Of a stretch of DNA of 64,000 nt, positions 807 to 5,477 are shown piece by piece. Position numbers and translations under genes: made by a program. The stretch is from a virus. Taxonomy: Duplodnaviria > Heunggongvirae > Uroviricota > Caudoviricetes. Numbering within the stretch: position 1 is the stretch's first letter; every line of letters begins with the position of its first letter. The stretch is taken from IMG/VR virus record IMGVR_UViG_3300045988_006728. The stretch is one strand, 5' to 3'. Under the pieces are notes generated by a model. The model did not search any database. It was given only the letters and a program-made list of their open reading frames with translations, and was not told the DNA's origin.

Positions 807-2222
807 ATGAGCGAATTATTCAAACATGCGCACCTTCATGCAGGTCGAACTGAAAATGGTGCTGTAAACCATACTTCATCAATGTCTGCTCTTGTAGACT
901 TTTACAAAGCTGCTGGTTCAAGCCGTAGCAACGTAGAAATCTTACCAGACCTGTTCTACAAAGCTTTGCGTGAGGATGTTGATGTTGCAGTTCGTATTTT
1001 GCTTCATATGCGAGATGTACGAGAAGGTATGGGTGAGCGTAAAGCCTTCAGAACTGTTTTACTTCAAGCGATTGAAGACAAAGTTTTAGAGCCTACGCAG
1101 GTTCTTCGCATTATGGATAAGATTGCAGAACTTGGTCGTTTTGATGACTTCAAAATCTTCGTAGGTACTCGTTTCGAGACAGATGCCTTCAAACATCTAG
1201 AAGCAGCATTACTAGACCCTGCAACAGCAGGTTTGGCGGCTAAGTGGTTACCACGAGTCAAACCACGTCATAAGCAGTTTGTAAAACGTTTCTGCAAGTT
1301 TGCCAACTTGAGTGAGAAAGAGTACCGCACACTGTTGTCTGCACTATCTGATACAGTTGAGCAAAAAATCTCTGCTAATGAGTTTGGTAAGATTGACTAC
1401 AGTAAGATTCCTTCACTTGCTGCTGCACGTTACCAAAAACTGTTTAACCGCAAAGATGGAGAACGCTACAAAGCTTACATCGAGTCCTTATCAAAGGGTG
1501 AGGCTAAGATTAATGCTGGTGCTGTTTACCCATACGATGTAATTAAATCTGTTAAGCATGGTAATGCAGATGTTGCTAATGAGCAGTGGAAAGCACTACC
1601 AAACTGGATGGCAGAGGGTGAAAACATCTTGTGTATGTCTGATGTTTCAAGCTCAATGTCTTGGGTGAATTTTGGTTCAATTACTGCTCTTGATATTGGT
1701 GTTTCACTTGCATTGTATGTAGCAGAACGTAATACAGGTTGCTTTAAGAATGAGTTGATGGTTTATTCAACAAACCCTCACTTCATCGAACTGAGTGGTG
1801 ATTTACGAAACCGTAATCGTCAGGTGATGCGACACGTTGAATATGGCTCAACTAACTTACAAGCAGCTTTTGACCGCATTCTTGAGATAGGTAAGAGAAA
1901 CAACTTGACTCAGAAAGATATGCCAAGTAAGCTTATCATCTTCTCCGATATGGAGTTCAATCAGGTTGATGGGGCTAACGGTCGTACAAACTTTGAAGCA
2001 ATTCAGAGTAAGTACAAAAAAGCTGGATACGAAATGCCTCAACTGGTATTCTGGTACTTAGCAAACCGTAATGGTACTTGCGAAGTGTCTGTTAAGGATA
2101 ACGGTGTAGCAATGGTATCTGGTTTTTCTCCAGCTACTTTAAAAGCTCTGCTTGGTGGTGAGAAGTTTGACCCAATCAGCGTAATGCTCAAAGCAGTAAT
2201 GATTGACCGTTATATCTGGTAA
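807..2222 (+). CDS. vWA-domain protein with MIDAS motif (D-V-S-S-S); possible TROVE/Ro60-like RNA-binding protein
   Basis: 471-aa ORF; DxSxS at ILCMSDVSSSMS about residue 276 with hydrophobic beta-strand context; helical N-terminal domain beginning TENGAV...LVDFYKAAGS, loosely like the Ro60 N-terminus as recalled. Confidence 0.45.
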   Translation: MSELFKHAHLHAGRTENGAVNHTSSMSALVDFYKAAGSSRSNVEILPDLFYKALREDVDVAVRILLHMRDVREGMGERKAFRTVLLQAIEDKVLEPTQVLRIMDKIAELGRFDDFKIFVGTRFETDAFKHLEAALLDPATAGLAAKWLPRVKPRHKQFVKRFCKFANLSEKEYRTLLSALSDTVEQKISANEFGKIDYSKIPSLAAARYQKLFNRKDGERYKAYIESLSKGEAKINAGAVYPYDVIKSVKHGNADVANEQWKALPNWMAEGENILCMSDVSSSMSWVNFGSITALDIGVSLALYVAERNTGCFKNELMVYSTNPHFIELSGDLRNRNRQVMRHVEYGSTNLQAAFDRILEIGKRNNLTQKDMPSKLIIFSDMEFNQVDGANGRTNFEAIQSKYKKAGYEMPQLVFWYLANRNGTCEVSVKDNGVAMVSGFSPATLKALLGGEKFDPISVMLKAVMIDRYIW

Positions 2223-2387: not shown

Positions 2388-2464
2388 CTCTGTTTAGCTC
2401 AGCTTGGTAGAGCGTTCCGTTTGGGGCGGTAAGGCCGGAGGTTCAAGTCCTCCAACAGAGACCA
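2388..2464 (+). tRNA. tRNA-Pro (anticodon TGG)
   Basis: Acceptor ctctgtt/aacagag, D-arm gctc-agcttggta-gagc, T-arm ggagg-ttcaagt-cctcc, anticodon loop tttgggg, encoded CCA. Confidence 0.7.
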
Positions 2465-2471
2465 AATTAAT

Positions 2472-2549
2472 GTTCCAGTAGACAAAATGGTAAAGTCACC
2501 ACTCTTTCAAAGTGGATATCTGAGGGTTCAAATCCCTTCTGGAACGCCA
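2472..2549 (+). tRNA. tRNA-Glu (anticodon TTC)
   Basis: Acceptor gttccag/ctggaac, anticodon stem ccact/agtgg with loop ctttcaa, T-loop ttcaaat, CCA. Confidence 0.7.
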
Positions 2550-2556
2550 GTTTTGA

Positions 2557-2628
2557 CAGAAGACCAATTACAGCAAACTTAATCTACTCATCTGACACGA
2601 AATCGGACAAAGAAGATATTTGGTCTGG
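2557..2628 (+). ncRNA. Structured inter-tRNA element, unit 1 (A box CAGAAGACC ... B box GGTCTGG); candidate Y RNA-like stem-loop
   Basis: AGACC of the A box pairs with GGTCT of the B box; conserved TaCAGCAA follows the A box; same framing repeated at three other sites. Confidence 0.35.
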
Positions 2629-2639
2629 TCATTGAGAAT

Positions 2640-2716
2640 TGCGGGTATAGAGAAAGGGCGTCTCACATGTCTCATTAGCATGGTATCGGCAGGTTCGACT
2701 CCTGCACCCGCCTCCA
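2640..2716 (+). tRNA. tRNA-Met (anticodon CAT)
   Basis: Anticodon stem catgt/gcatg with loop ctcatta, T-arm gcagg-ttcgact-cctgc, CCA; first acceptor pair mismatched and position 37 is T. Confidence 0.55.
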
Positions 2717-2722
2717 ATTTTG

Positions 2723-2782
2723 CAGAAGACCGTATTCAGCAACAAAATACTTTTTGCGGATAAAAGAAAAAACACGGTCTGG
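2723..2782 (+). ncRNA. Structured inter-tRNA element, unit 2 (A/B box framed)
   Basis: CAGAAGACCgtaTtCAGCAA at 2723 and GGTCTGG at 2776; the inner helix shows compensatory changes relative to unit 1. Confidence 0.35.
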
Positions 2783-2793
2783 CAATGTATTAA

Positions 2794-2870
2794 GGTTAGG
2801 AAGCACATAAGGTATGTGCGGTCGCCTGTTAAGCGAATGGCACAGGGTTCGAATCCCTGACTAACCGCCA
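2794..2870 (+). tRNA. tRNA-Asn (anticodon GTT)
   Basis: Anticodon loop ctgttaa, T-arm caggg-ttcgaat-ccctg, acceptor 3' strand actaacc, CCA. Confidence 0.65.
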
Positions 2871-2879
2871 AATTTAAAT

Positions 2880-2967
2880 GTGTCGTTATCCCGTAGATGG
2901 TAGCGGTGGGGACTGTAAATCCCTTGTCATTGAGACTCGGTAGGTTCGACTCCTACACGGCACACCA
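2880..2967 (+). tRNA. tRNA-Tyr (anticodon GTA), class II with long variable arm
   Basis: 88 nt; anticodon stem gggga/tccct with loop ctgtaaa; T-arm gtagg-ttcgact-cctac; CCA. Confidence 0.65.
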
Positions 2968-2972
2968 ATAAA

Positions 2973-3050
2973 GGTTATGTAGTTTAATTTGGTTAAAATA
3001 CTCCCCTGTCACGGGAGATGATGAGGGTTCAAATCCCTTCGTAACCGCCA
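2973..3050 (+). tRNA. tRNA-Asp (anticodon GTC)
   Basis: Anticodon stem ctccc/gggag with loop ctgtcac; T-loop ttcaaat; CCA. Confidence 0.65.
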
Positions 3051-3111
3051 ATTTTGAGAGGGCTATTTAGCCCCTCCCTTAAAGGGTTCTTACGAGTATC
3101 CTTTAAAGGAG

Positions 3112-3184
3112 CAGAAGACCAAATACAGCAAGAACGTATGAAATTTCAAGCCAATTTAATTTTGAAAATTTAAACTTGGTCTGG
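3112..3184 (+). ncRNA. Structured inter-tRNA element, unit 3a (A/B box framed)
   Basis: CAGAAGACCaaaTaCAGCAA at 3112 and GGTCTGG at 3178. Confidence 0.35.
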
Positions 3185-3197
3185 CTCAACAAATTTA

Positions 3198-3329
3198 CAG
3201 AAGACCGTTTACAGCAAAACTTAAACAATCTATTTCTCCGGTAAAGAAAAGGCGAAGGTTCGATTCCTTCACTCGGCAGATGTCGAGTTGGTGTAATGGT
3301 AGCACTTAAGATGATAAACAACGGTCTGG
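3198..3329 (+). ncRNA. Structured element, unit 3b, with internal tRNA-mimic domain; candidate YrlA-like Y RNA
   Basis: A box at 3198 and B box at 3323 frame a T-arm (gaagg-ttcgatt-ccttc, 3254-3270), a 7-bp acceptor-like helix closed by a 4-nt loop (actcggc-agat-gtcgagt, 3271-3288) and a D-arm (gtg-taatggtag-cac); there is no anticodon arm. Confidence 0.4.
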
Positions 3330-3330
3330 T

Positions 3331-3474
3331 AATTATCTTTGTAGATAAGTTATTAAGCTTACCTGTGAGTATGCGACCACAAAGGGTGAAAGGGTAAATT
3401 CTAGATTTAAACCCAAAAAGGCACATCGCTACAGACCTTAAGCAAGTCTGGGTAGCTTATCTACAAAGATAATT
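3331..3474 (+). repeat. Perfect 19-bp inverted repeat (AATTATCTTTGTAGATAAG) flanking a 106-bp structured segment
   Basis: 3331-3349 is the exact reverse complement of 3456-3474; the interior holds further hairpins (cagac-N8-gtctg); ends 4 nt before tRNA-Lys. Confidence 0.6.
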
Positions 3475-3478
3475 TAAT

Positions 3479-3554
3479 GGAAGTGTAGCAGAATGGTGAT
3501 GCGGCAGACTTTTAATCTGACAGGCGATGGGTTCGAATCCCTCCACTTCTACCA
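3479..3554 (+). tRNA. tRNA-Lys (anticodon TTT)
   Basis: Anticodon loop cttttaa, D-loop aatggtga, T-loop ttcgaat, acceptor ggaagtg/cacttct, CCA; paralog of the tRNA at 5201. Confidence 0.7.
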
Positions 3555-3558
3555 ATAT

Positions 3559-3635
3559 GGTTCAGTCGCAGATAAGGTAATGCAGGGGTCTCATAAGCCC
3601 TATGAATGTGGGTTCGATTCCCATCTGAACCTCCA
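3559..3635 (+). tRNA. tRNA with anticodon CAT (Met, fMet or Ile2)
   Basis: Perfect acceptor ggttcag/ctgaacc, anticodon loop ctcataa, T-loop ttcgatt, CCA. Confidence 0.7.
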
Positions 3636-3636
3636 A

Positions 3637-3712
3637 GCTGGTATAGTTAAGAAGGTTATAACACTCCCCTGATAAGGGAACATCGGTGGTTCGATTCCAC
3701 CTACCAGTACCA
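3637..3712 (+). tRNA. tRNA-Ile (anticodon GAT)
   Basis: Anticodon loop ctgataa, T-arm ggtgg-ttcgatt-ccacc, CCA. Confidence 0.7.
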
Positions 3713-3723
3713 ATTTCAATAAA

Positions 3724-3759
3724 GTTGTTGACATTGAGATGTGACTACTTTATAGTAAC
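3724..3759 (+). promoter_or_regulatory. Sigma70-like promoter (TTGACA-17-TATAGT)
   Basis: Strong -35/-10 match; followed by about 230 nt of structured non-coding sequence before tRNA-Arg. Confidence 0.5.
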
Positions 3760-3987
3760 CTTAGTTTTCGTTGCGTAGCGTCTATTTTGCAAATTTAAAA
3801 TAAATGCAAACGACAATGTTTTTCTGGCAGTAGCTTGATAGGCTAAACACCAGTGAGGTCTTCCAATCCCTCATCAAAGAATTTGGCGTACTCGCCCACG
3901 GTATGATTAATAATGTGGGCAACACTCTAAAGGGTATCCCTTATGGGTCTTGGCTTAAATGCAATAAGTACCCTTTAAAATGTTAAT

Positions 3988-4064
3988 GCACCCTTAGTTC
4001 AATTGGATAGAGCAACGGTCTTCTAAATCGTTAGTTACAGGTTCGAATCCTGTAGGGTGTGCCA
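3988..4064 (+). tRNA. tRNA-Arg (anticodon TCT)
   Basis: Anticodon stem acggt/atcgt with loop cttctaa; T-loop ttcgaat; acceptor gcaccct/agggtgt; CCA. Confidence 0.7.
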
Positions 4065-4207
4065 ATTTAGTTAGCAGATTGCTTAGACGACCTTATCGGG
4101 TCTCCGTGTAAGGAGGTGGTCTGTATCTCATGTTTTCCAGAACATGTAAATAATCTGAGAAGGTGCTTTACAGTGTTGAGATAATACGGTAAGCTTCGAA
4201 TTATAGT

Positions 4208-4290
4208 GTGGGACGATGTTAAGACTCTAAGGCATGAGCAACGGCCTCCAAAACCGTTTCAAAGTGGTTCAACTCCTCCGTCCCATGCCA
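4208..4290 (+). tRNA. Atypical tRNA-like gene, anticodon loop ctCCAaa (Trp?), 8-bp acceptor helix
   Basis: 8-bp helix gtgggacg/cgtcccat, discriminator G, CCA and T-loop ttcaact are present, but the D-region is about 8 nt too long for a canonical fold. Confidence 0.35.
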
Positions 4291-4303
4291 AAGTCTTATT
4301 AGG

Positions 4304-4393
4304 GGTAGGTAGCGGCTAATGGTAGCCAAACTGTCTTGAAAACAGTTGCCACTGTAGAGATACGGTGAGGGTTCGACTCCTTTACTTACCGCC
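4304..4393 (+). tRNA. tRNA-Ser (anticodon TGA), class II
   Basis: 90 nt; anticodon stem actgt/acagt with loop cttgaaa; long variable arm; T-loop ttcgact; discriminator G; only CC of CCA encoded. Confidence 0.65.
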
Positions 4394-4662
4394 TAATAAG
4401 ATTTAAAGCCAAGCTTCATTCGGATGTTGCTTTGGTATCCCTCGTGTATTGTCGTACACGCACAGTAAAGCACCTAGTAGGTGTCACGGAGAAGAGATAA
4501 TATCAAGCTCTCCAAAGGTTCTAGTCACCGGATTAAACAAGACTATGCAAAGACCTTTTTAGGTCTTTTTAGAGGGCTTCTAAGGTTATTACAGCTTGTT
4601 GTGGAACCTTGTTGCTTAGGTTCTTAGAAGTTCTCTAAAAAGATTTAATGGGAGATTGACAT

Positions 4663-5115
4663 ATGGCACGTAGCAGTTTGACTAAAGATATTCTTGAACC
4701 TTTAGTAAAGGGTTCAGTATCATTCAGAGAAGTGCTTATAAAGCTTGGGAGAAAACCATCAGGTGGTTCTCAGTCACATCTAAAGCGTGTTATAGAGAAG
4801 TTTGAAATAGACACTTCTCATTTCCTCGGACAAAAGGCTGGTAAGATTAAAACTGTACCAAAAAGAAAGCCTGAAGAAATCTTAATTCTACGTGAATCTG
4901 GTGAAAGAGCAAGGTCTTCACAACTAAGAAGAGCTTTAATAGCATCTGGTATCGAATACAAATGCTCTAAATGCGGTCAGTTACCGGAGTGGTTGGGCAA
5001 CCCTCTAACTCTTGATGTTGACCACATTAATGAGAACTGGTTAGATGATAGAAAAGAGAATCTTCGGTTCTTATGTCCAAATTGCCACAGTCAATTCTCA
5101 AGGCATTTGATTTAA
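4663..5115 (+). CDS. HNH homing endonuclease inside the tRNA array
   Basis: 150-aa ORF with C-terminal HNH signature DVDHINENW...RFLCPNCHSQ; stop codon lies 2 nt before the next tRNA. Confidence 0.7.
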   Translation: MARSSLTKDILEPLVKGSVSFREVLIKLGRKPSGGSQSHLKRVIEKFEIDTSHFLGQKAGKIKTVPKRKPEEILILRESGERARSSQLRRALIASGIEYKCSKCGQLPEWLGNPLTLDVDHINENWLDDRKENLRFLCPNCHSQFSRHLI

Positions 5116-5116
5116 T

Positions 5117-5193
5117 GCACCTATAGCCCAACTGGTAGAGGCAGCAGACTTAGAATCTGCTCAGTGTGAGTTCGAATCTCTCTAGGTGTACCA
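5117..5193 (+). tRNA. tRNA with anticodon TAG (decodes Leu CUA) but class I, short-variable-arm fold
   Basis: Acceptor gcaccta/taggtgt, anticodon stem gcaga/tctgc with loop cttagaa, T-loop ttcgaat, CCA; variable arm only 5 nt. Confidence 0.55.
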
Positions 5194-5200
5194 AATTAAT

Positions 5201-5276
5201 GCAGGTGTAGCAAAATGGTTATGCGGCTGACTCTTAATCAGTAAGACGATGGGTTCAATTCCCTCCACCTGTACCA
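5201..5276 (+). tRNA. tRNA-Lys (anticodon CTT)
   Basis: Paralog of tRNA-Lys(TTT) at 3479 with a compensatory change in the anticodon stem; loop ctcttaa; CCA. Confidence 0.65.
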
Positions 5277-5282
5277 GACATT

Positions 5283-5358
5283 GGGGATGTAGTTTACATG
5301 GTTAAAACATAAGTTTTGCAAACTTAAGTACAGGGTTCAATTCCCTGCTTCTCCACCA
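5283..5358 (+). tRNA. tRNA-Ala (anticodon TGC)
   Basis: G3-U70 wobble pair in the acceptor stem (ggggatg/cttctcc), anticodon loop tttgcaa, T-arm caggg-ttcaatt-ccctg, CCA. Confidence 0.7.
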
Positions 5359-5364
5359 ATTAGT

Positions 5365-5439
5365 GCATCCATAGTTTAAACGGGAAAATTACAGTCTTCC
5401 AAACTGAGGTTGAGGGTTCGAGTCCCTTCGGATTCTCCA
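5365..5439 (+). tRNA. tRNA-Gly (anticodon TCC), acceptor stem imperfect
   Basis: Anticodon loop cttccaa, T-arm gaggg-ttcgagt-ccctt, CCA; two mismatches in the acceptor helix. Confidence 0.5.
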
Positions 5440-5477
5440 AGTTATTTTACTCTCTCTCAATTAAAATAATAATAATG

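What the first reader, a model, noticed from the sequence alone, without database searches (positions are those of the whole stretch)
4208..4290. Atypical tRNA-like gene with 8-bp acceptor helix and CCA anticodon loop
A perfect helix gtgggacg/cgtcccat, discriminator G, encoded CCA, a T-loop and an anticodon loop ctCCAaa are present. The segment between acceptor and anticodon arm is about 8 nt longer than a canonical D-arm. An 8-bp acceptor stem is otherwise typical of tRNA-Sec, but the anticodon here is not TCA. It may be a non-canonical Trp tRNA or another tRNA-like regulatory RNA.
Basis: seen in the sequence. Interest (0 to 1): 0.5.

Follow-up and report, generated by a model that had tools for sequence, protein, structure and literature searches.

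The report
Hidden non-canonical tryptophan tRNA in Felix O1-like phages
An unannotated 83-base gene in the tRNA cluster of Felix O1-like phages folds into a conserved but oddly built cloverleaf with the tryptophan anticodon, and is most likely the phage's own tryptophan tRNA, which standard tRNA finders miss.

Summary
Window 4208-4290 (+) lies between tRNA-Arg(tct) and tRNA-Ser(tga) in a Felixounavirus tRNA cluster. It has an 8-bp acceptor helix (first pair G.U), G discriminator, encoded CCA, a T-loop and a CUCCAAA anticodon loop.

ARAGORN and Rfam do not call it, and its single-sequence fold is no better than shuffles. Comparative evidence decides the matter. The element occurs in 236 phage records, including Felix O1 itself. 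Across 19 distinct variants, 98.9% of cells pair and 9 of 20 pairs show compensatory changes. RNAalifold finds the same fold independently.

The fold has:
- an 8-bp acceptor and a 4-bp T stem (12 bp in all);
- an invariant 9-nt connector, AUGUUAAGA;
- a short D arm with GG;
- a 5-bp anticodon stem with an unpaired C.A below it;
- a 5-nt variable loop.

Host TrpRS identity elements (CCA anticodon, G73, mostly A1-U72) are present. Phages that carry the element lack a canonical tRNA-Trp. In two lineages the canonical tRNAs cover 19 amino acids, all but Trp. The related phage phiEa21-4 has a canonical tRNA-Trp and no copy of this element.

Best reading: a functional, structurally non-canonical tRNA-Trp, a new variant of the known (8/4) tRNAs. 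Charging and decoding are inferred, not shown.

The parts
4208..4215 (+). Acceptor stem, 5' strand (GUGGGACG), 8 nt. U at -1 (4207) is conserved in all variants.
   Evidence: Pairs with 4279-4286. Pairs 1 and 2 covary (AU:11, GU:5, GC:3; UA:16, CG:2). Pairs 4-8 are invariant.
4216..4224 (+). Connector AUGUUAAGA (9 nt) between the acceptor and D stems. A canonical tRNA has 2 nt here.
   Evidence: Eight of the nine positions are invariant in 19 distinct variants from four or more phage lineages. The second position is U in 18 and C in one (PC79-13). No partner was found for it.
4225..4238 (+). D arm: 3-bp stem CUC/GAG (4225-4227 with 4236-4238) and loop UAAGGCAU with invariant GG (4231-4232).
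   Evidence: The middle pair is U-A, A-U or G-C and the third pair is C-G or U-A. RNAalifold predicts the same stem. The canonical-type D stem is broken in 6 of 13 variants and is 4-5 kcal/mol worse.
4239..4239 (+). Single unpaired C between the D stem and the anticodon stem.
   Evidence: Invariant.
4240..4258 (+). Anticodon arm: 5-bp stem AACGG/CCGUU (4240-4244 with 4254-4258) and 9-nt loop CCUCCAAAA. In other words, a C4245 x A4253 mismatch closes CUCCAAA. Anticodon CCA is at 4248-4250.
   Evidence: Four of 5 stem pairs have compensatory changes (AACGG/CCGUU, GUAAG/CUUAC, GUAGG/CCUAC, ACUUG/CAAGU). U33, CCA and A37 are invariant. The 31-39 position is never a Watson-Crick pair.
4259..4263 (+). 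Variable loop UCAAA (5 nt).
   Evidence: Invariant. There is no long variable arm.
4264..4278 (+). T arm: 4-bp stem (4264-4267 with 4275-4278) and T-loop UUCAACU (4268-4274).
   Evidence: The outer pair is G-C or U-A. The second pair is G.U in 18 of 19 variants and U x U in the window's own copy.
4279..4286 (+). Acceptor stem, 3' strand (CGUCCCAU).
   Evidence: See the 5' strand. The Pectobacterium and Yersinia phage variants carry one extra, bulged base here.
4287..4290 (+). Discriminator G (4287) and encoded CCA (4288-4290).
   Evidence: G is invariant. CCA is present in 18 of 19 variants and is CUA in phage Tribble. Conservation between lineages stops right after CCA.

Best explanation
Window 4208-4290 is a functional, structurally non-canonical tRNA-Trp(CCA) gene of Felix O1-like phages.

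Inferred steps:
1. It is transcribed with the tRNA cluster.
2. Host RNase P cuts after the conserved U(-1), measuring the 12-bp acceptor/T-stem stack. The 3' end is trimmed back to the encoded CCA.
3. Host TrpRS charges it, reading C34-C35-A36, G73 and the backbone of the first acceptor pairs. TrpRS does not contact the D region.
4. EF-Tu accepts it because the acceptor branch is still 12 bp long, here split 8/4 instead of 7/5.
5. It decodes UGG and supplements the host's single-copy tRNA-Trp.

Shown here: the conserved cloverleaf, its covariation, its identity elements and its distribution.

Unexplained: why the core is remodelled, with a 9-nt invariant connector, a short D stem and an unpaired 31-39 position.
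For: 1. Structure. Across 19 distinct variants, 98.9% of cells are paired and 9 of 20 pairs have changes on both sides. Slid controls give 1-2 such pairs at 36-53% pairing. The MAFFT-only alignment of 13 variants gives 99.6% paired and 8 of 20 pairs. RNAalifold predicts the identical structure.

2. Conservation.
- The element is in 236 phage records, including Felix O1 at NC_005282 26533-26615.
- It survives where neighbouring tRNA genes are lost: Felix O1 lacks Arg(tct), SUSP2 has no annotated or alignable Ser(tga), and the window lacks 11 downstream tRNA genes.
- Identity between the window and Arno162 is 73%, within the 53-92% range of canonical tRNA orthologues. The 100 nt upstream are 52% identical.

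3. Trp identity.
- U33-CCA-A37 and G73 are invariant. Pair 1-72 is A-U in 11 of 19 variants.
- These are the bacterial TrpRS determinants. E. coli TrpRS contacts only the anticodon, G73 and the acceptor backbone (PMC9976931, PMC12135181).

4. Complementarity.
- No canonical tRNA-Trp exists in the window or in the sampled tRNA-cluster stretches of carrier phages.
- In Arno162 and in Felixounavirus contig L055, canonical tRNAs cover 19 amino acids, all but Trp.
- Erwinia phage phiEa21-4 has a canonical tRNA-Trp and no orthologue. That tRNA is the best non-family hit of the family model at 35.1 bits.

5. Canonical backbone.
- Positions 26-76 have exactly canonical length.
- ARAGORN calls tRNA-Trp(cca) at 95% of its threshold once 3-7 nt are removed from positions 8-23.

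6. Energetics and host supply.
- The 8/4 cloverleaf is the minimum-energy fold for the Sf17 variant and lies within 2 kcal/mol of it for the Felix O1-type sequence.
- E. coli has one tRNA-Trp gene per genome (median 1).
Against: - No expression, processing or charging data exist. None were found in the literature searched.
- A 9-nt connector and a 3-bp D stem are unprecedented for a decoding tRNA in enterobacteria. The comparable 'E-loop' (8/4) tRNA was not charged by E. coli GlyRS or ThrRS, the two enzymes tested, in vitro (PMC5389517).
- U8, which normally pairs with A14, is replaced, so the tertiary core cannot be canonical.
- The window's own copy has a U x U mismatch in a 4-bp T stem.
- One metagenomic variant (L248) has two mismatches in the acceptor stem.
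- Standard detectors score it below threshold.
- A Ro60-like RNA-binding protein is encoded 2 kb upstream, which leaves room for a non-translational role.
Confidence: 0.68

Rival explanations
1. It is a tRNA-like non-coding RNA whose main role is not decoding. Examples: a ligand or partner of the phage Ro60-like protein encoded just upstream of the cluster, a decoy for a host tRNA-targeting nuclease, or a sink or regulator for TrpRS. In this reading the cloverleaf and CCA end serve stability and recognition, not translation.
For: - ORF 807-2222 is a full-length structural homologue of Ro60. Its model has pLDDT 87 and pTM 0.87. Foldseek gives E 2e-8 to 2e-6 and query-normalised TM 0.39-0.64 to Ro60 structures, including Thermus phage phiLo.
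- Bacterial and phage Y RNAs are encoded next to Ro60 genes and mimic tRNAs. One is cut by RNase P and receives CCA (PMC4201824).
- The invariant extra connector suggests a specific protein contact.
- Other odd (8/4) tRNAs appear not to be used in translation (PMC5389517).
- Related phages carry further long tRNA-like RNAs at this locus.
Against: - The element lacks the Y RNA hallmarks. No Ro-binding helix is formed by the 5' and 3' ends, there is no CGAA motif (it has CGAU), and Rfam gives no Y RNA hit.
- It keeps a complete anticodon arm with invariant U33-CCA-A37, while loop positions 32, 38 and 39 vary. That pattern is expected for decoding or TrpRS recognition.
- Its anticodon is exactly the one missing from otherwise complete tRNA sets.
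- The Ro-like family is widespread in tRNA-rich phages that lack this element.
Confidence: 0.2
2. It is a decaying tRNA-Trp pseudogene, a relic that acquired an insertion in the D region and mismatches in the T and anticodon stems, kept only by linkage.
For: - It falls below threshold for ARAGORN and Rfam.
- It has A x C at position 49-65 and C x A at 31-39.
- The window's copy has U x U in the T stem.
- L248 has acceptor mismatches.
- Phage tRNA clusters do contain pseudo-tRNAs (PMC3185647).
Against: - Nine of 20 pairs have compensatory substitutions and 98.9% of cells pair across lineages only 73% identical.
- The loops, GG, connector, G73 and CCA are invariant (one variant has CUA).
- It is retained while flanking tRNA genes come and go.
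- Conservation ends exactly at the RNA's ends.
- A relic would not keep structure through that much divergence.
Confidence: 0.04
3. The acceptor branch is canonical 7/5, not 8/4. The acceptor is 4208-4214 with 4280-4286, the T stem has 5 pairs with an A4263 x C4279 mismatch, and G4215 is free as 'position 8'.
For: - Positions 26-76 have exactly canonical length.
- ARAGORN's calls on the deletion variants start at the same first nucleotide and run through the CCA, as expected for a standard tRNA layout.
- G4215, A4263 and C4279 are invariant, so covariation cannot decide.
Against: - The G4215-C4279 pair adds about 2.4 kcal/mol and is chosen by RNAalifold.
- A x C is never replaced by a Watson-Crick pair in any variant.
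- Position 8 is G rather than the near-universal U8.
Confidence: 0.25

Closest known systems
(8/4) non-canonical tRNAs of bacteria and phages, including the 'E-loop' tRNAs (Mukai et al., Nucleic Acids Res 2017, PMC5389517; review PMC7609411)
   Same: A 12-bp acceptor branch split into an 8-bp acceptor and a 4-bp T stem. They occur in phage tRNA clusters and are missed by standard tools. One subgroup has an extra loop between the acceptor and D stems.
   Different: Described (8/4) species are Ser, His, Cys, Sec and allo-tRNAs, most with a long variable arm and a long D stem with a tetraloop. None is Trp. This element has a 5-nt variable loop, a 3-bp D stem with an 8-nt GG loop and an invariant 9-nt connector. 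Its hosts are E. coli, Salmonella, Shigella, Citrobacter, Pectobacterium and Yersinia.
Canonical bacterial and phage tRNA-Trp(CCA): E. coli trpT and the tRNA-Trp of Erwinia phage phiEa21-4
   Same: Anticodon loop CUCCAAA, G73, A1-U72, G3-G5 paired with C68-C70, and the T-loop. The 15-nt anticodon stem-loop CGGCCUCCAAAACCG is identical to phiEa21-4's, including the C31 x A39 mismatch. Overall identity to E. coli tRNA-Trp is 67%.
   Different: About 6-7 extra nt lie before the D stem. G replaces U8. The 49-65 pair is lost and an eighth acceptor pair is gained. Positions 26-44 form a covarying Watson-Crick pair. The gene sits at a different place in the cluster.
[quoted passage not shown]
   Same: A CCA anticodon with one anticodon-stem pair unpinned. 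The paper reports 267 bacterial genes unpinned at the bottom, which lengthens the loop by 2 nt, as here.
   Different: UGA readthrough was shown for top-unpinned variants. Bottom-unpinned ones were not studied. Here an extra 26-44 pair restores five stacked pairs. The phage shows no avoidance of TGA stops.
Bacterial tRNA-Sec (Rfam RF01852)
   Same: An 8-bp acceptor stem, G73, and a six-position anticodon stem counting the mismatch. It is the only Rfam family that matches.
   Different: The anticodon is CCA, not UCA. There is no long variable arm, no 6-bp D stem with a 4-nt loop, and a 4-bp rather than 5-bp T stem. The score is 21.3 bits against a gathering score of 47.
YrlA-type Y RNAs, the tRNA-like partners of bacterial and phage Ro60 (PMC4201824, PMC12135203)
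   Same: tRNA-like D and T arms. The gene lies near a Ro60-like gene. Some are RNase P and CCA-adding substrates.
   Different: Y RNAs replace the anticodon arm with a Ro-binding helix formed by the RNA's ends and carry a GNCGAA motif. This element has a true anticodon arm, its ends lie in the acceptor stem, and it has no such motif.

Membership tests
Canonical elongator tRNA (Rfam RF00005 / ARAGORN) | Detected above the curated threshold by a tRNA covariance model or by ARAGORN | tested here: not met
   No RF00005 hit at gathering score. ARAGORN finds nothing at default, -ps or -ps90, and only non-Trp alternative folds at -ps80 and -ps70. It calls Trp(cca) only after 3-7 nt are deleted and the threshold is set to 95%.
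Canonical elongator tRNA (Rfam RF00005 / ARAGORN) | 7-bp acceptor, 2-nt connector with U8, and a 5-bp T stem | tested here: not met
   The acceptor has 8 bp, the connector has 9 nt, position 8 is G, and the T stem has 4 bp.
Canonical elongator tRNA (Rfam RF00005 / ARAGORN) | D loop with GG, T-loop UUCRANY, anticodon loop with U33 and purine 37, discriminator plus CCA | tested here: met
   All are present, and all but the CCA (CUA in one variant) are invariant in 19 variants.
Bacterial tRNA-Trp identity | Anticodon C34-C35-A36 | tested here: met
   4248-4250, invariant. Named as a determinant in PMC9976931 and PMC12135181.
Bacterial tRNA-Trp identity | Discriminator G73 | tested here: met
   G4287, invariant.
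Bacterial tRNA-Trp identity | A1-U72 first pair and G-C pairs at 3-70 to 5-68 (minor elements) | tested here: inconclusive
   Pair 1-72 is A-U in 11 of 19 variants, G.U in 5 (including the window) and G-C in 3. Pair 2-71 is U-A rather than G-C. Pair 3-70 is G-C in 16 of 19 (G.U in 2, unpaired in 1). Pairs 4-69 and 5-68 are G-C in all 19.
Bacterial tRNA-Trp identity | Aminoacylation with Trp by host TrpRS and decoding of UGG | not testable with these tools
   Needs biochemistry or tRNA sequencing.
(8/4) non-canonical tRNAs | 8-bp acceptor stem plus 4-bp T stem, 12 bp in all | tested here: met
   Pairs 1 and 2 and the outer T-stem pair covary. The eighth pair, G4215-C4279, is invariant, so it rests on energy (-2.4 kcal/mol) and on the constant A x C at 49-65.
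allo-tRNA (subset of 8/4 and 9/3 tRNAs) | Long variable arm, and a long D stem with a tetraloop | tested here: not met
   The variable loop is 5 nt. The D stem is 3 bp with an 8-nt loop.
tRNA-Sec | UCA anticodon, long variable arm, 6-bp D stem, score at or above 47 bits | tested here: not met
   The anticodon is CCA, there is no variable arm, and the score is 21.3 bits.
Y RNA (YrlA type) | Ro-binding helix formed by the 5' and 3' ends in place of the anticodon arm, and a GNCGAA(N)G motif | tested here: not met
   The ends form an acceptor stem with GCCA, a full anticodon arm is present, and the sequence reads GACGAUG. Rfam gives no Y RNA hit.
Y RNA (YrlA type) | Encoded next to a Ro60 orthologue | tested here: met
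   The Ro60-like ORF 807-2222 ends 166 nt before the tRNA cluster and 2 kb before the element.

The most novel reading that the evidence does not exclude
The remodelled core is adaptive, in one of two ways.
(a) It relaxes decoding, so that this CCA-anticodon tRNA also reads UGA at a low level. The invariant 9-nt connector and altered D arm occupy the region where the Hirsh G24A and A9C mutations act, and the anticodon stem is unpinned at 31-39. This would be a natural, phage-encoded Hirsh-type or 4-bp-stem-type tRNA-Trp.
(b) The connector is a handle for the phage's Ro60-like protein, coupling a phage tRNA to an RNA quality-control or decay machine.
Either way it would be a new functional class of tRNA in a classical, tractable phage.
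Probability: 0.12. Interest if true: 0.85.

Novelty: new variant of a known kind. Interest (0 to 1): 0.55.

Why it matters
- Felix O1 and its relatives are classical, widely used Salmonella and E. coli typing and therapy phages. Their published tRNA lists contain no Trp: the 22 tRNAscan-SE genes reported for Felix O1, and the annotations of the roughly 100 listed GenBank records.
- If this RNA is the missing tRNA-Trp, several of these phages carry tRNAs for all 20 amino acids. Annotation pipelines would then be systematically missing one gene.
- It would extend the (8/4) architecture to a class I synthetase substrate with a short variable loop, in hosts where every assay is routine: TrpRS, EF-Tu, RNase P, ribosomes and genetics.
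- It offers a natural test of how much the tRNA core (position 8, connector, D stem) can change while decoding is kept.
- Because D-arm and anticodon-stem changes in tRNA-Trp are known to alter UGA reading, it is also a ready-made natural variant for that question.

Tried and rejected
- **ARAGORN, relaxed thresholds and intron mode.** It gave only spurious alternative folds (Ala|Cys, or Leu with a 93-nt 'intron'). The mitochondrial mode gave Trp(cca) with a 7-bp acceptor shifted by one base. That would leave U-GCCA at the 3' end and A/G at -1, so it was rejected.
- **tRNA-Sec.** Rejected: wrong anticodon, no variable arm, sub-threshold score.
- **Canonical-type D stem (G11-C32, U12.G31, U13-A30).** Broken in 6 of 13 variants and 4-5 kcal/mol worse.
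- **Protein-coding explanation.** Only ORFs of 37 aa or fewer overlap the element, the longest of which run on into tRNA-Ser. The substitutions are pair-compensating.
- **Wider relatives.**
  - The IMG/VR scan with GGGACGAYGTTAAGA returned the same phage group plus chance hits in coding DNA.
  - The metagenome scan added 6 new variants, all from Ounavirinae-like contigs.
  - The scan of 185,579 bacterial and archaeal genomes found nothing.
- **UGA reassignment or avoidance.** Stops of 75 long ORFs in the window are TAA 48, TGA 22 and TAG 5. That share looks ordinary, though no reference genome was compared.
- **Own promoter.** Only weak sigma-70-like matches lie just upstream: TTGAGA-17-AATTAT in the scan, and TTTACA-17-TAAGCT by eye (TTGACA in Mooglevirus and Sl26). 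Not decisive. The promoter annotated in AYO145A is on the opposite strand.
- **Y RNA reading.** Hallmarks are absent.
- **Literature.** No paper was found that reports this gene.

Full report
**1. What the window is**

The region matches Felixounavirus genomes (Ounavirinae; Felix O1-like myophages of E. coli, Salmonella and Shigella) at 87-98% identity. Window 2388-5439 is the phage tRNA cluster. ARAGORN finds 15 tRNAs and Rfam finds 13. The finding, 4208-4290 (+), lies between tRNA-Arg(tct) at 3988-4064 and tRNA-Ser(tga) at 4304-4393.

**2. Check of the observation**

- Acceptor: GUGGGACG (4208-4215) pairs with CGUCCCAU (4279-4286). That is 8 bp with a G.U first pair.
- 3' end: G4287, then CCA at 4288-4290.
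- T-loop: UUCAACU at 4268-4274.
- Anticodon loop: CUCCAAA at 4246-4252.
- The stretch between the acceptor and the anticodon stem is 24 nt, about 5-7 more than usual.

On its own the sequence would not pass.
- ARAGORN finds nothing at its default or at the relaxed -ps and -ps90 thresholds. At -ps80 and -ps70 it gives only other, poor folds, none with a Trp anticodon. Only its mitochondrial mode returns Trp(cca).
- Rfam returns only tRNA-Sec at 21.3 bits against a gathering score of 47.
- Its folding energy equals that of shuffled sequences (z = -0.12).

**3. Comparative evidence**

*Distribution.* The 106-nt query matches 236 phage records:
- Felixounavirus, Mooglevirus and Suspvirus at 85-100% identity;
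- Pectobacterium phages Arno162 and Wc4 at about 75%.

Yersinia phage P778 carries a copy 90.5% identical to Arno162's. Felix O1 itself carries the element at NC_005282 26533-26615, unannotated. None of the roughly 100 listed records annotates a tRNA there. The Felix O1 genome paper lists 22 tRNAs with no Trp (PMC3185647).

*Sampling.* GenBank, IMG/VR and metagenome contigs gave 19 distinct variants.

*Structure.*
- RNAalifold on a plain MAFFT alignment of 13 variants predicts a cloverleaf identical to the one I derived by hand.
- On that alignment 99.6% of cells pair and 8 of 20 pairs have changes on both sides.
- On the 19-variant alignment the figures are 98.9% and 9 of 20, with 18 further pair types. 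That alignment is fitted to the model, so it leans towards the structure.
- Sliding the partners by 1-3 columns gives 36-53% pairing and 1-2 such pairs.

*Which arms covary.*
- Anticodon stem: AACGG/CCGUU, GUAAG/CUUAC, GUAGG/CCUAC and ACUUG/CAAGU.
- D stem: CUC/GAG, CAC/GUG and CGU/ACG.
- Acceptor: pair 1 is A-U, G.U or G-C, and pair 2 is U-A or C-G.
- T stem: the outer pair is G-C or U-A.

*Boundaries and rate.* Between lineages, conservation begins at the first acceptor base and ends right after CCA. Divergence between the window and Arno162 is 73% identity. That is typical of canonical tRNA orthologues between the same phages (53-92%). The upstream 100 nt are 52% identical.

*Coding.* Only ORFs of 37 aa or fewer overlap the element.

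**4. Anatomy**

| Part | Window coordinates | Note |
|---|---|---|
| Acceptor stem, 8 bp | 4208-4215 with 4279-4286 | first pair G.U here, A-U in most variants |
| Connector AUGUUAAGA | 4216-4224 | 8 of 9 positions invariant; canonical tRNAs have 2 nt |
| D stem, 3 bp | 4225-4227 with 4236-4238 | loop of 8 nt with invariant GG |
| Single C | 4239 | invariant |
| Anticodon stem, 5 bp | 4240-4244 with 4254-4258 | followed by a C x A (or C x C) non-pair |
| Anticodon loop | 4245-4253 | 9 nt, or 7 nt closed by the mismatch; U33-CCA-A37 invariant |
| Variable loop UCAAA | 4259-4263 | invariant |
| T stem, 4 bp | 4264-4267 with 4275-4278 | canonical T-loop between them |
| G73 and CCA | 4287-4290 | CCA encoded |

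*Relation to the canonical layout.* In canonical numbering, positions 26-76 have exactly standard length. The molecule can therefore be read as a tRNA-Trp with three changes:
- the 49-65 pair has become A x C;
- position 8 is a G that pairs with C65, giving an 8/4 split of the usual 12-bp acceptor branch;
- 6-7 nt have been added before the D stem.

*8/4 versus 7/5.* The eighth pair is invariant, so it rests on energy, not covariation. It is worth -2.4 kcal/mol, and 8/4 is the minimum-energy fold for variant Sf17. The constant A x C points the same way.

*D stem.* The ancestral-type D stem (GUU/AGC, as in E. coli tRNA-Trp) is broken in 6 of 13 variants and is 4-5 kcal/mol worse.

*Deletion test.* Deleting 3-7 nt anywhere in positions 8-23 makes ARAGORN call tRNA-Trp(cca) at 95% of its threshold.

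**5. Why tryptophan**

*Identity elements.* The bacterial TrpRS determinants are the CCA anticodon, G73 and, less strongly, the first acceptor pairs. The E. coli TrpRS-tRNA structure shows contacts only with the anticodon, G73 and the backbone of acceptor pairs 1-5 (PMC9976931, PMC12135181). All are present. Pair 1-72 is A-U, as in E. coli trpT, in 11 of 19 variants.

*Similarity to known tRNA-Trp.*
- The element is 67% identical to E. coli tRNA-Trp. That sequence was confirmed in 5426 of 5426 genomes at a median of one copy.
- It shares a 15-nt anticodon stem-loop, including C31 x A39, with the canonical tRNA-Trp of Erwinia phage phiEa21-4.
- That tRNA is the best non-family hit of the family covariance model, at 35.1 bits.

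*Distribution.* This is the strongest argument.
- Carrier phages have no canonical tRNA-Trp in the tRNA-cluster stretches examined.
- In Arno162 and in Felixounavirus contig L055, the canonical tRNAs cover 19 amino acids, all but Trp.
- phiEa21-4 has a canonical tRNA-Trp and no orthologue of this element in the first 45 kb of its genome, which include the whole tRNA cluster.

*Retention.* The gene also persists where neighbours are lost:
- Arg(tct) in Felix O1;
- Ser(tga) in SUSP2, which has none annotated or alignable there;
- 11 downstream tRNA genes in this window.

**6. Mechanism and rivals**

*Most likely (0.68).* It is the phage's tRNA-Trp.
1. RNase P processes it after the conserved U(-1).
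2. The 3' end is trimmed to the encoded CCA.
3. Host TrpRS charges it.
4. EF-Tu carries it, because the acceptor branch is still 12 bp.
5. It reads UGG.

The structure, identity elements and distribution are shown. Processing, charging and decoding are inferred.

*Rivals.*
- **A tRNA-like RNA with a non-translational role (0.2).** This is prompted by the Ro60-like protein encoded just upstream and by Y RNAs that mimic tRNAs (PMC4201824). But the Y RNA hallmarks are absent and the anticodon is under selection.
- **A decaying pseudogene (0.04).** This is contradicted by the covariation.
- **A 7/5 rather than 8/4 acceptor branch (0.25).** This is a separate structural question and is compatible with either function.

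**7. Comparison with what is known**

*(8/4) tRNAs.* The closest architecture is the (8/4) tRNAs found in bacteria and phages by Mukai et al. (PMC5389517). One subgroup has an 'extra loop' between the acceptor and D stems. Those are Ser, His, Cys, Sec or allo-tRNAs, mostly with long variable arms. The paper does not mention Trp. The E-loop example was not charged by the two E. coli enzymes tested, GlyRS and ThrRS.

*4-bp anticodon stems.* A 2026 survey (PMC13092985) reports tRNA-Trp(CCA) genes with 4-bp anticodon stems in bacteria. It shows UGA readthrough for top-unpinned variants. The 267 bottom-unpinned ones, the type seen here, were not studied.

*Stop codons.* The phage uses TGA for 22 of 75 stops, which gives no sign of reassignment.

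*Classification.* I file the element as a new variant of a known kind: an (8/4)-type, connector-expanded tRNA-Trp. It is not a member of tRNA-Sec, allo-tRNA or the Y RNAs.

**8. Limits**

- No expression or charging data exist.
- The 19 variants come from a handful of lineages, so the covariation counts reflect few independent events.
- The eighth acceptor pair and the connector are invariant, so comparison cannot test them.
- Collections could not be searched with a covariance model, so the family may be wider than the Ounavirinae sampled here.

Noticed in passing
window 807-2222 (+): A 471-aa ORF ends 166 nt before the tRNA cluster. It matches DUF2828 + DUF7788/vWA and PHROG 850 'RNA-binding protein'. 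Its AlphaFold model (pLDDT 87, pTM 0.87) matches Ro60/TROVE structures over the full length (Foldseek E 2e-8 to 2e-6), including Thermus phage phiLo Ro60. The family is in 710 phage records, many of them tRNA-rich phages. No Y RNA partner is known for this family in Felix O1-like phages.
   Followed up: partly
window 4109-4166 (+): A conserved motif UAAGGAGGUGGUCUGUAUCUC (4109-4129) is followed by a hairpin that covaries between phages (4129-4146) and then CUGAGAAGGUG. By my reading, not a tool result, it is complementary to about 12 nt of the 16S rRNA 3' tail. It lies 80-100 nt upstream of the element in Felixounavirus, Mooglevirus, Suspvirus and metagenome contig L248. In phiEa21-4 it lies upstream of tRNA-Gly plus the canonical tRNA-Trp (L129 24413). 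Function unknown.
   Followed up: partly
window 5413-5444 (junction); compare L055 7105-9534: This phage lacks about 2.4 kb holding 11 tRNA genes (Thr, Val, Leu, Arg, Gln, Leu, Gln, His, Phe, Ser-gct, Cys) that relatives have. The 32 nt at the junction match both the 3' end of tRNA-Gly and the 3' end of tRNA-Cys in L055. This suggests deletion by recombination between the two tRNA 3' halves.
   Followed up: partly
L127 23-143 (Citrobacter phage Moogle, KM236239.1, reverse complement): An extra 121-nt tRNA-like RNA sits directly after tRNA-Arg(tct) and is absent from the window. It has a terminal helix GGUCAAG/CUUGACU followed by GCCA, a T arm GUAGG-UUCAACU-CCUAC, and an ACGAAAG motif. From memory, the helix resembles the conserved Ro-binding helix of Y RNAs. 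Fold z-score is -2.2.
   Followed up: partly
L129 23877-24044 (Erwinia phage phiEa21-4): A 168-nt unannotated RNA-like element sits after tRNA-Arg(tct). It has an 8-bp terminal helix (GGGUGAUU/AAUCACUC), a 4-bp T stem, a UUCGAAU T-loop and GCCA. This is a second long tRNA-like RNA at the same locus.
   Followed up: no
L129 24578-24653 (phiEa21-4 tRNA-Trp): The canonical tRNA-Trp of this related phage also has weak anticodon-stem ends, U27 x C43 and C31 x A39, leaving three central pairs. The unpaired 31-39 position is therefore shared by the canonical and non-canonical Trp tRNAs of the subfamily.
   Followed up: no
window 4663-5115 (+): An HNH homing-endonuclease ORF (150 aa) is inserted in the tRNA cluster between tRNA-Ser and tRNA-Leu. 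Felix O1 has HNH genes at other points of the cluster, one of them where tRNA-Arg(tct) lies in the window.
   Followed up: no
L248 1339-1422 (metagenome contig JACCDR010813160.1): This is the most divergent variant of the element. Its D and anticodon stems are fully compensated, but acceptor pairs 2 and 3 are U x U and C x U. It could be a sequencing error, a tolerated defect or a decaying copy.
   Followed up: no
window 3221-3271 (+) and 4555-4654 (+): A partial tRNA-like match (Rfam tRNA 22 bits, model positions 7-64) lies inside a minus-strand ORF (3103-3426). A long hairpin at 4555-4654 scores against plant miRNA precursor models (32.7 bits). Both are below threshold.
   Followed up: no
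window 4304-4393 (+): tRNA-Ser(tga), next to the element, scores only 33.2 bits with the Rfam tRNA model. It is unannotated in many GenBank records, including Felix O1, so tRNA counts published for these phages are underestimates.
   Followed up: no
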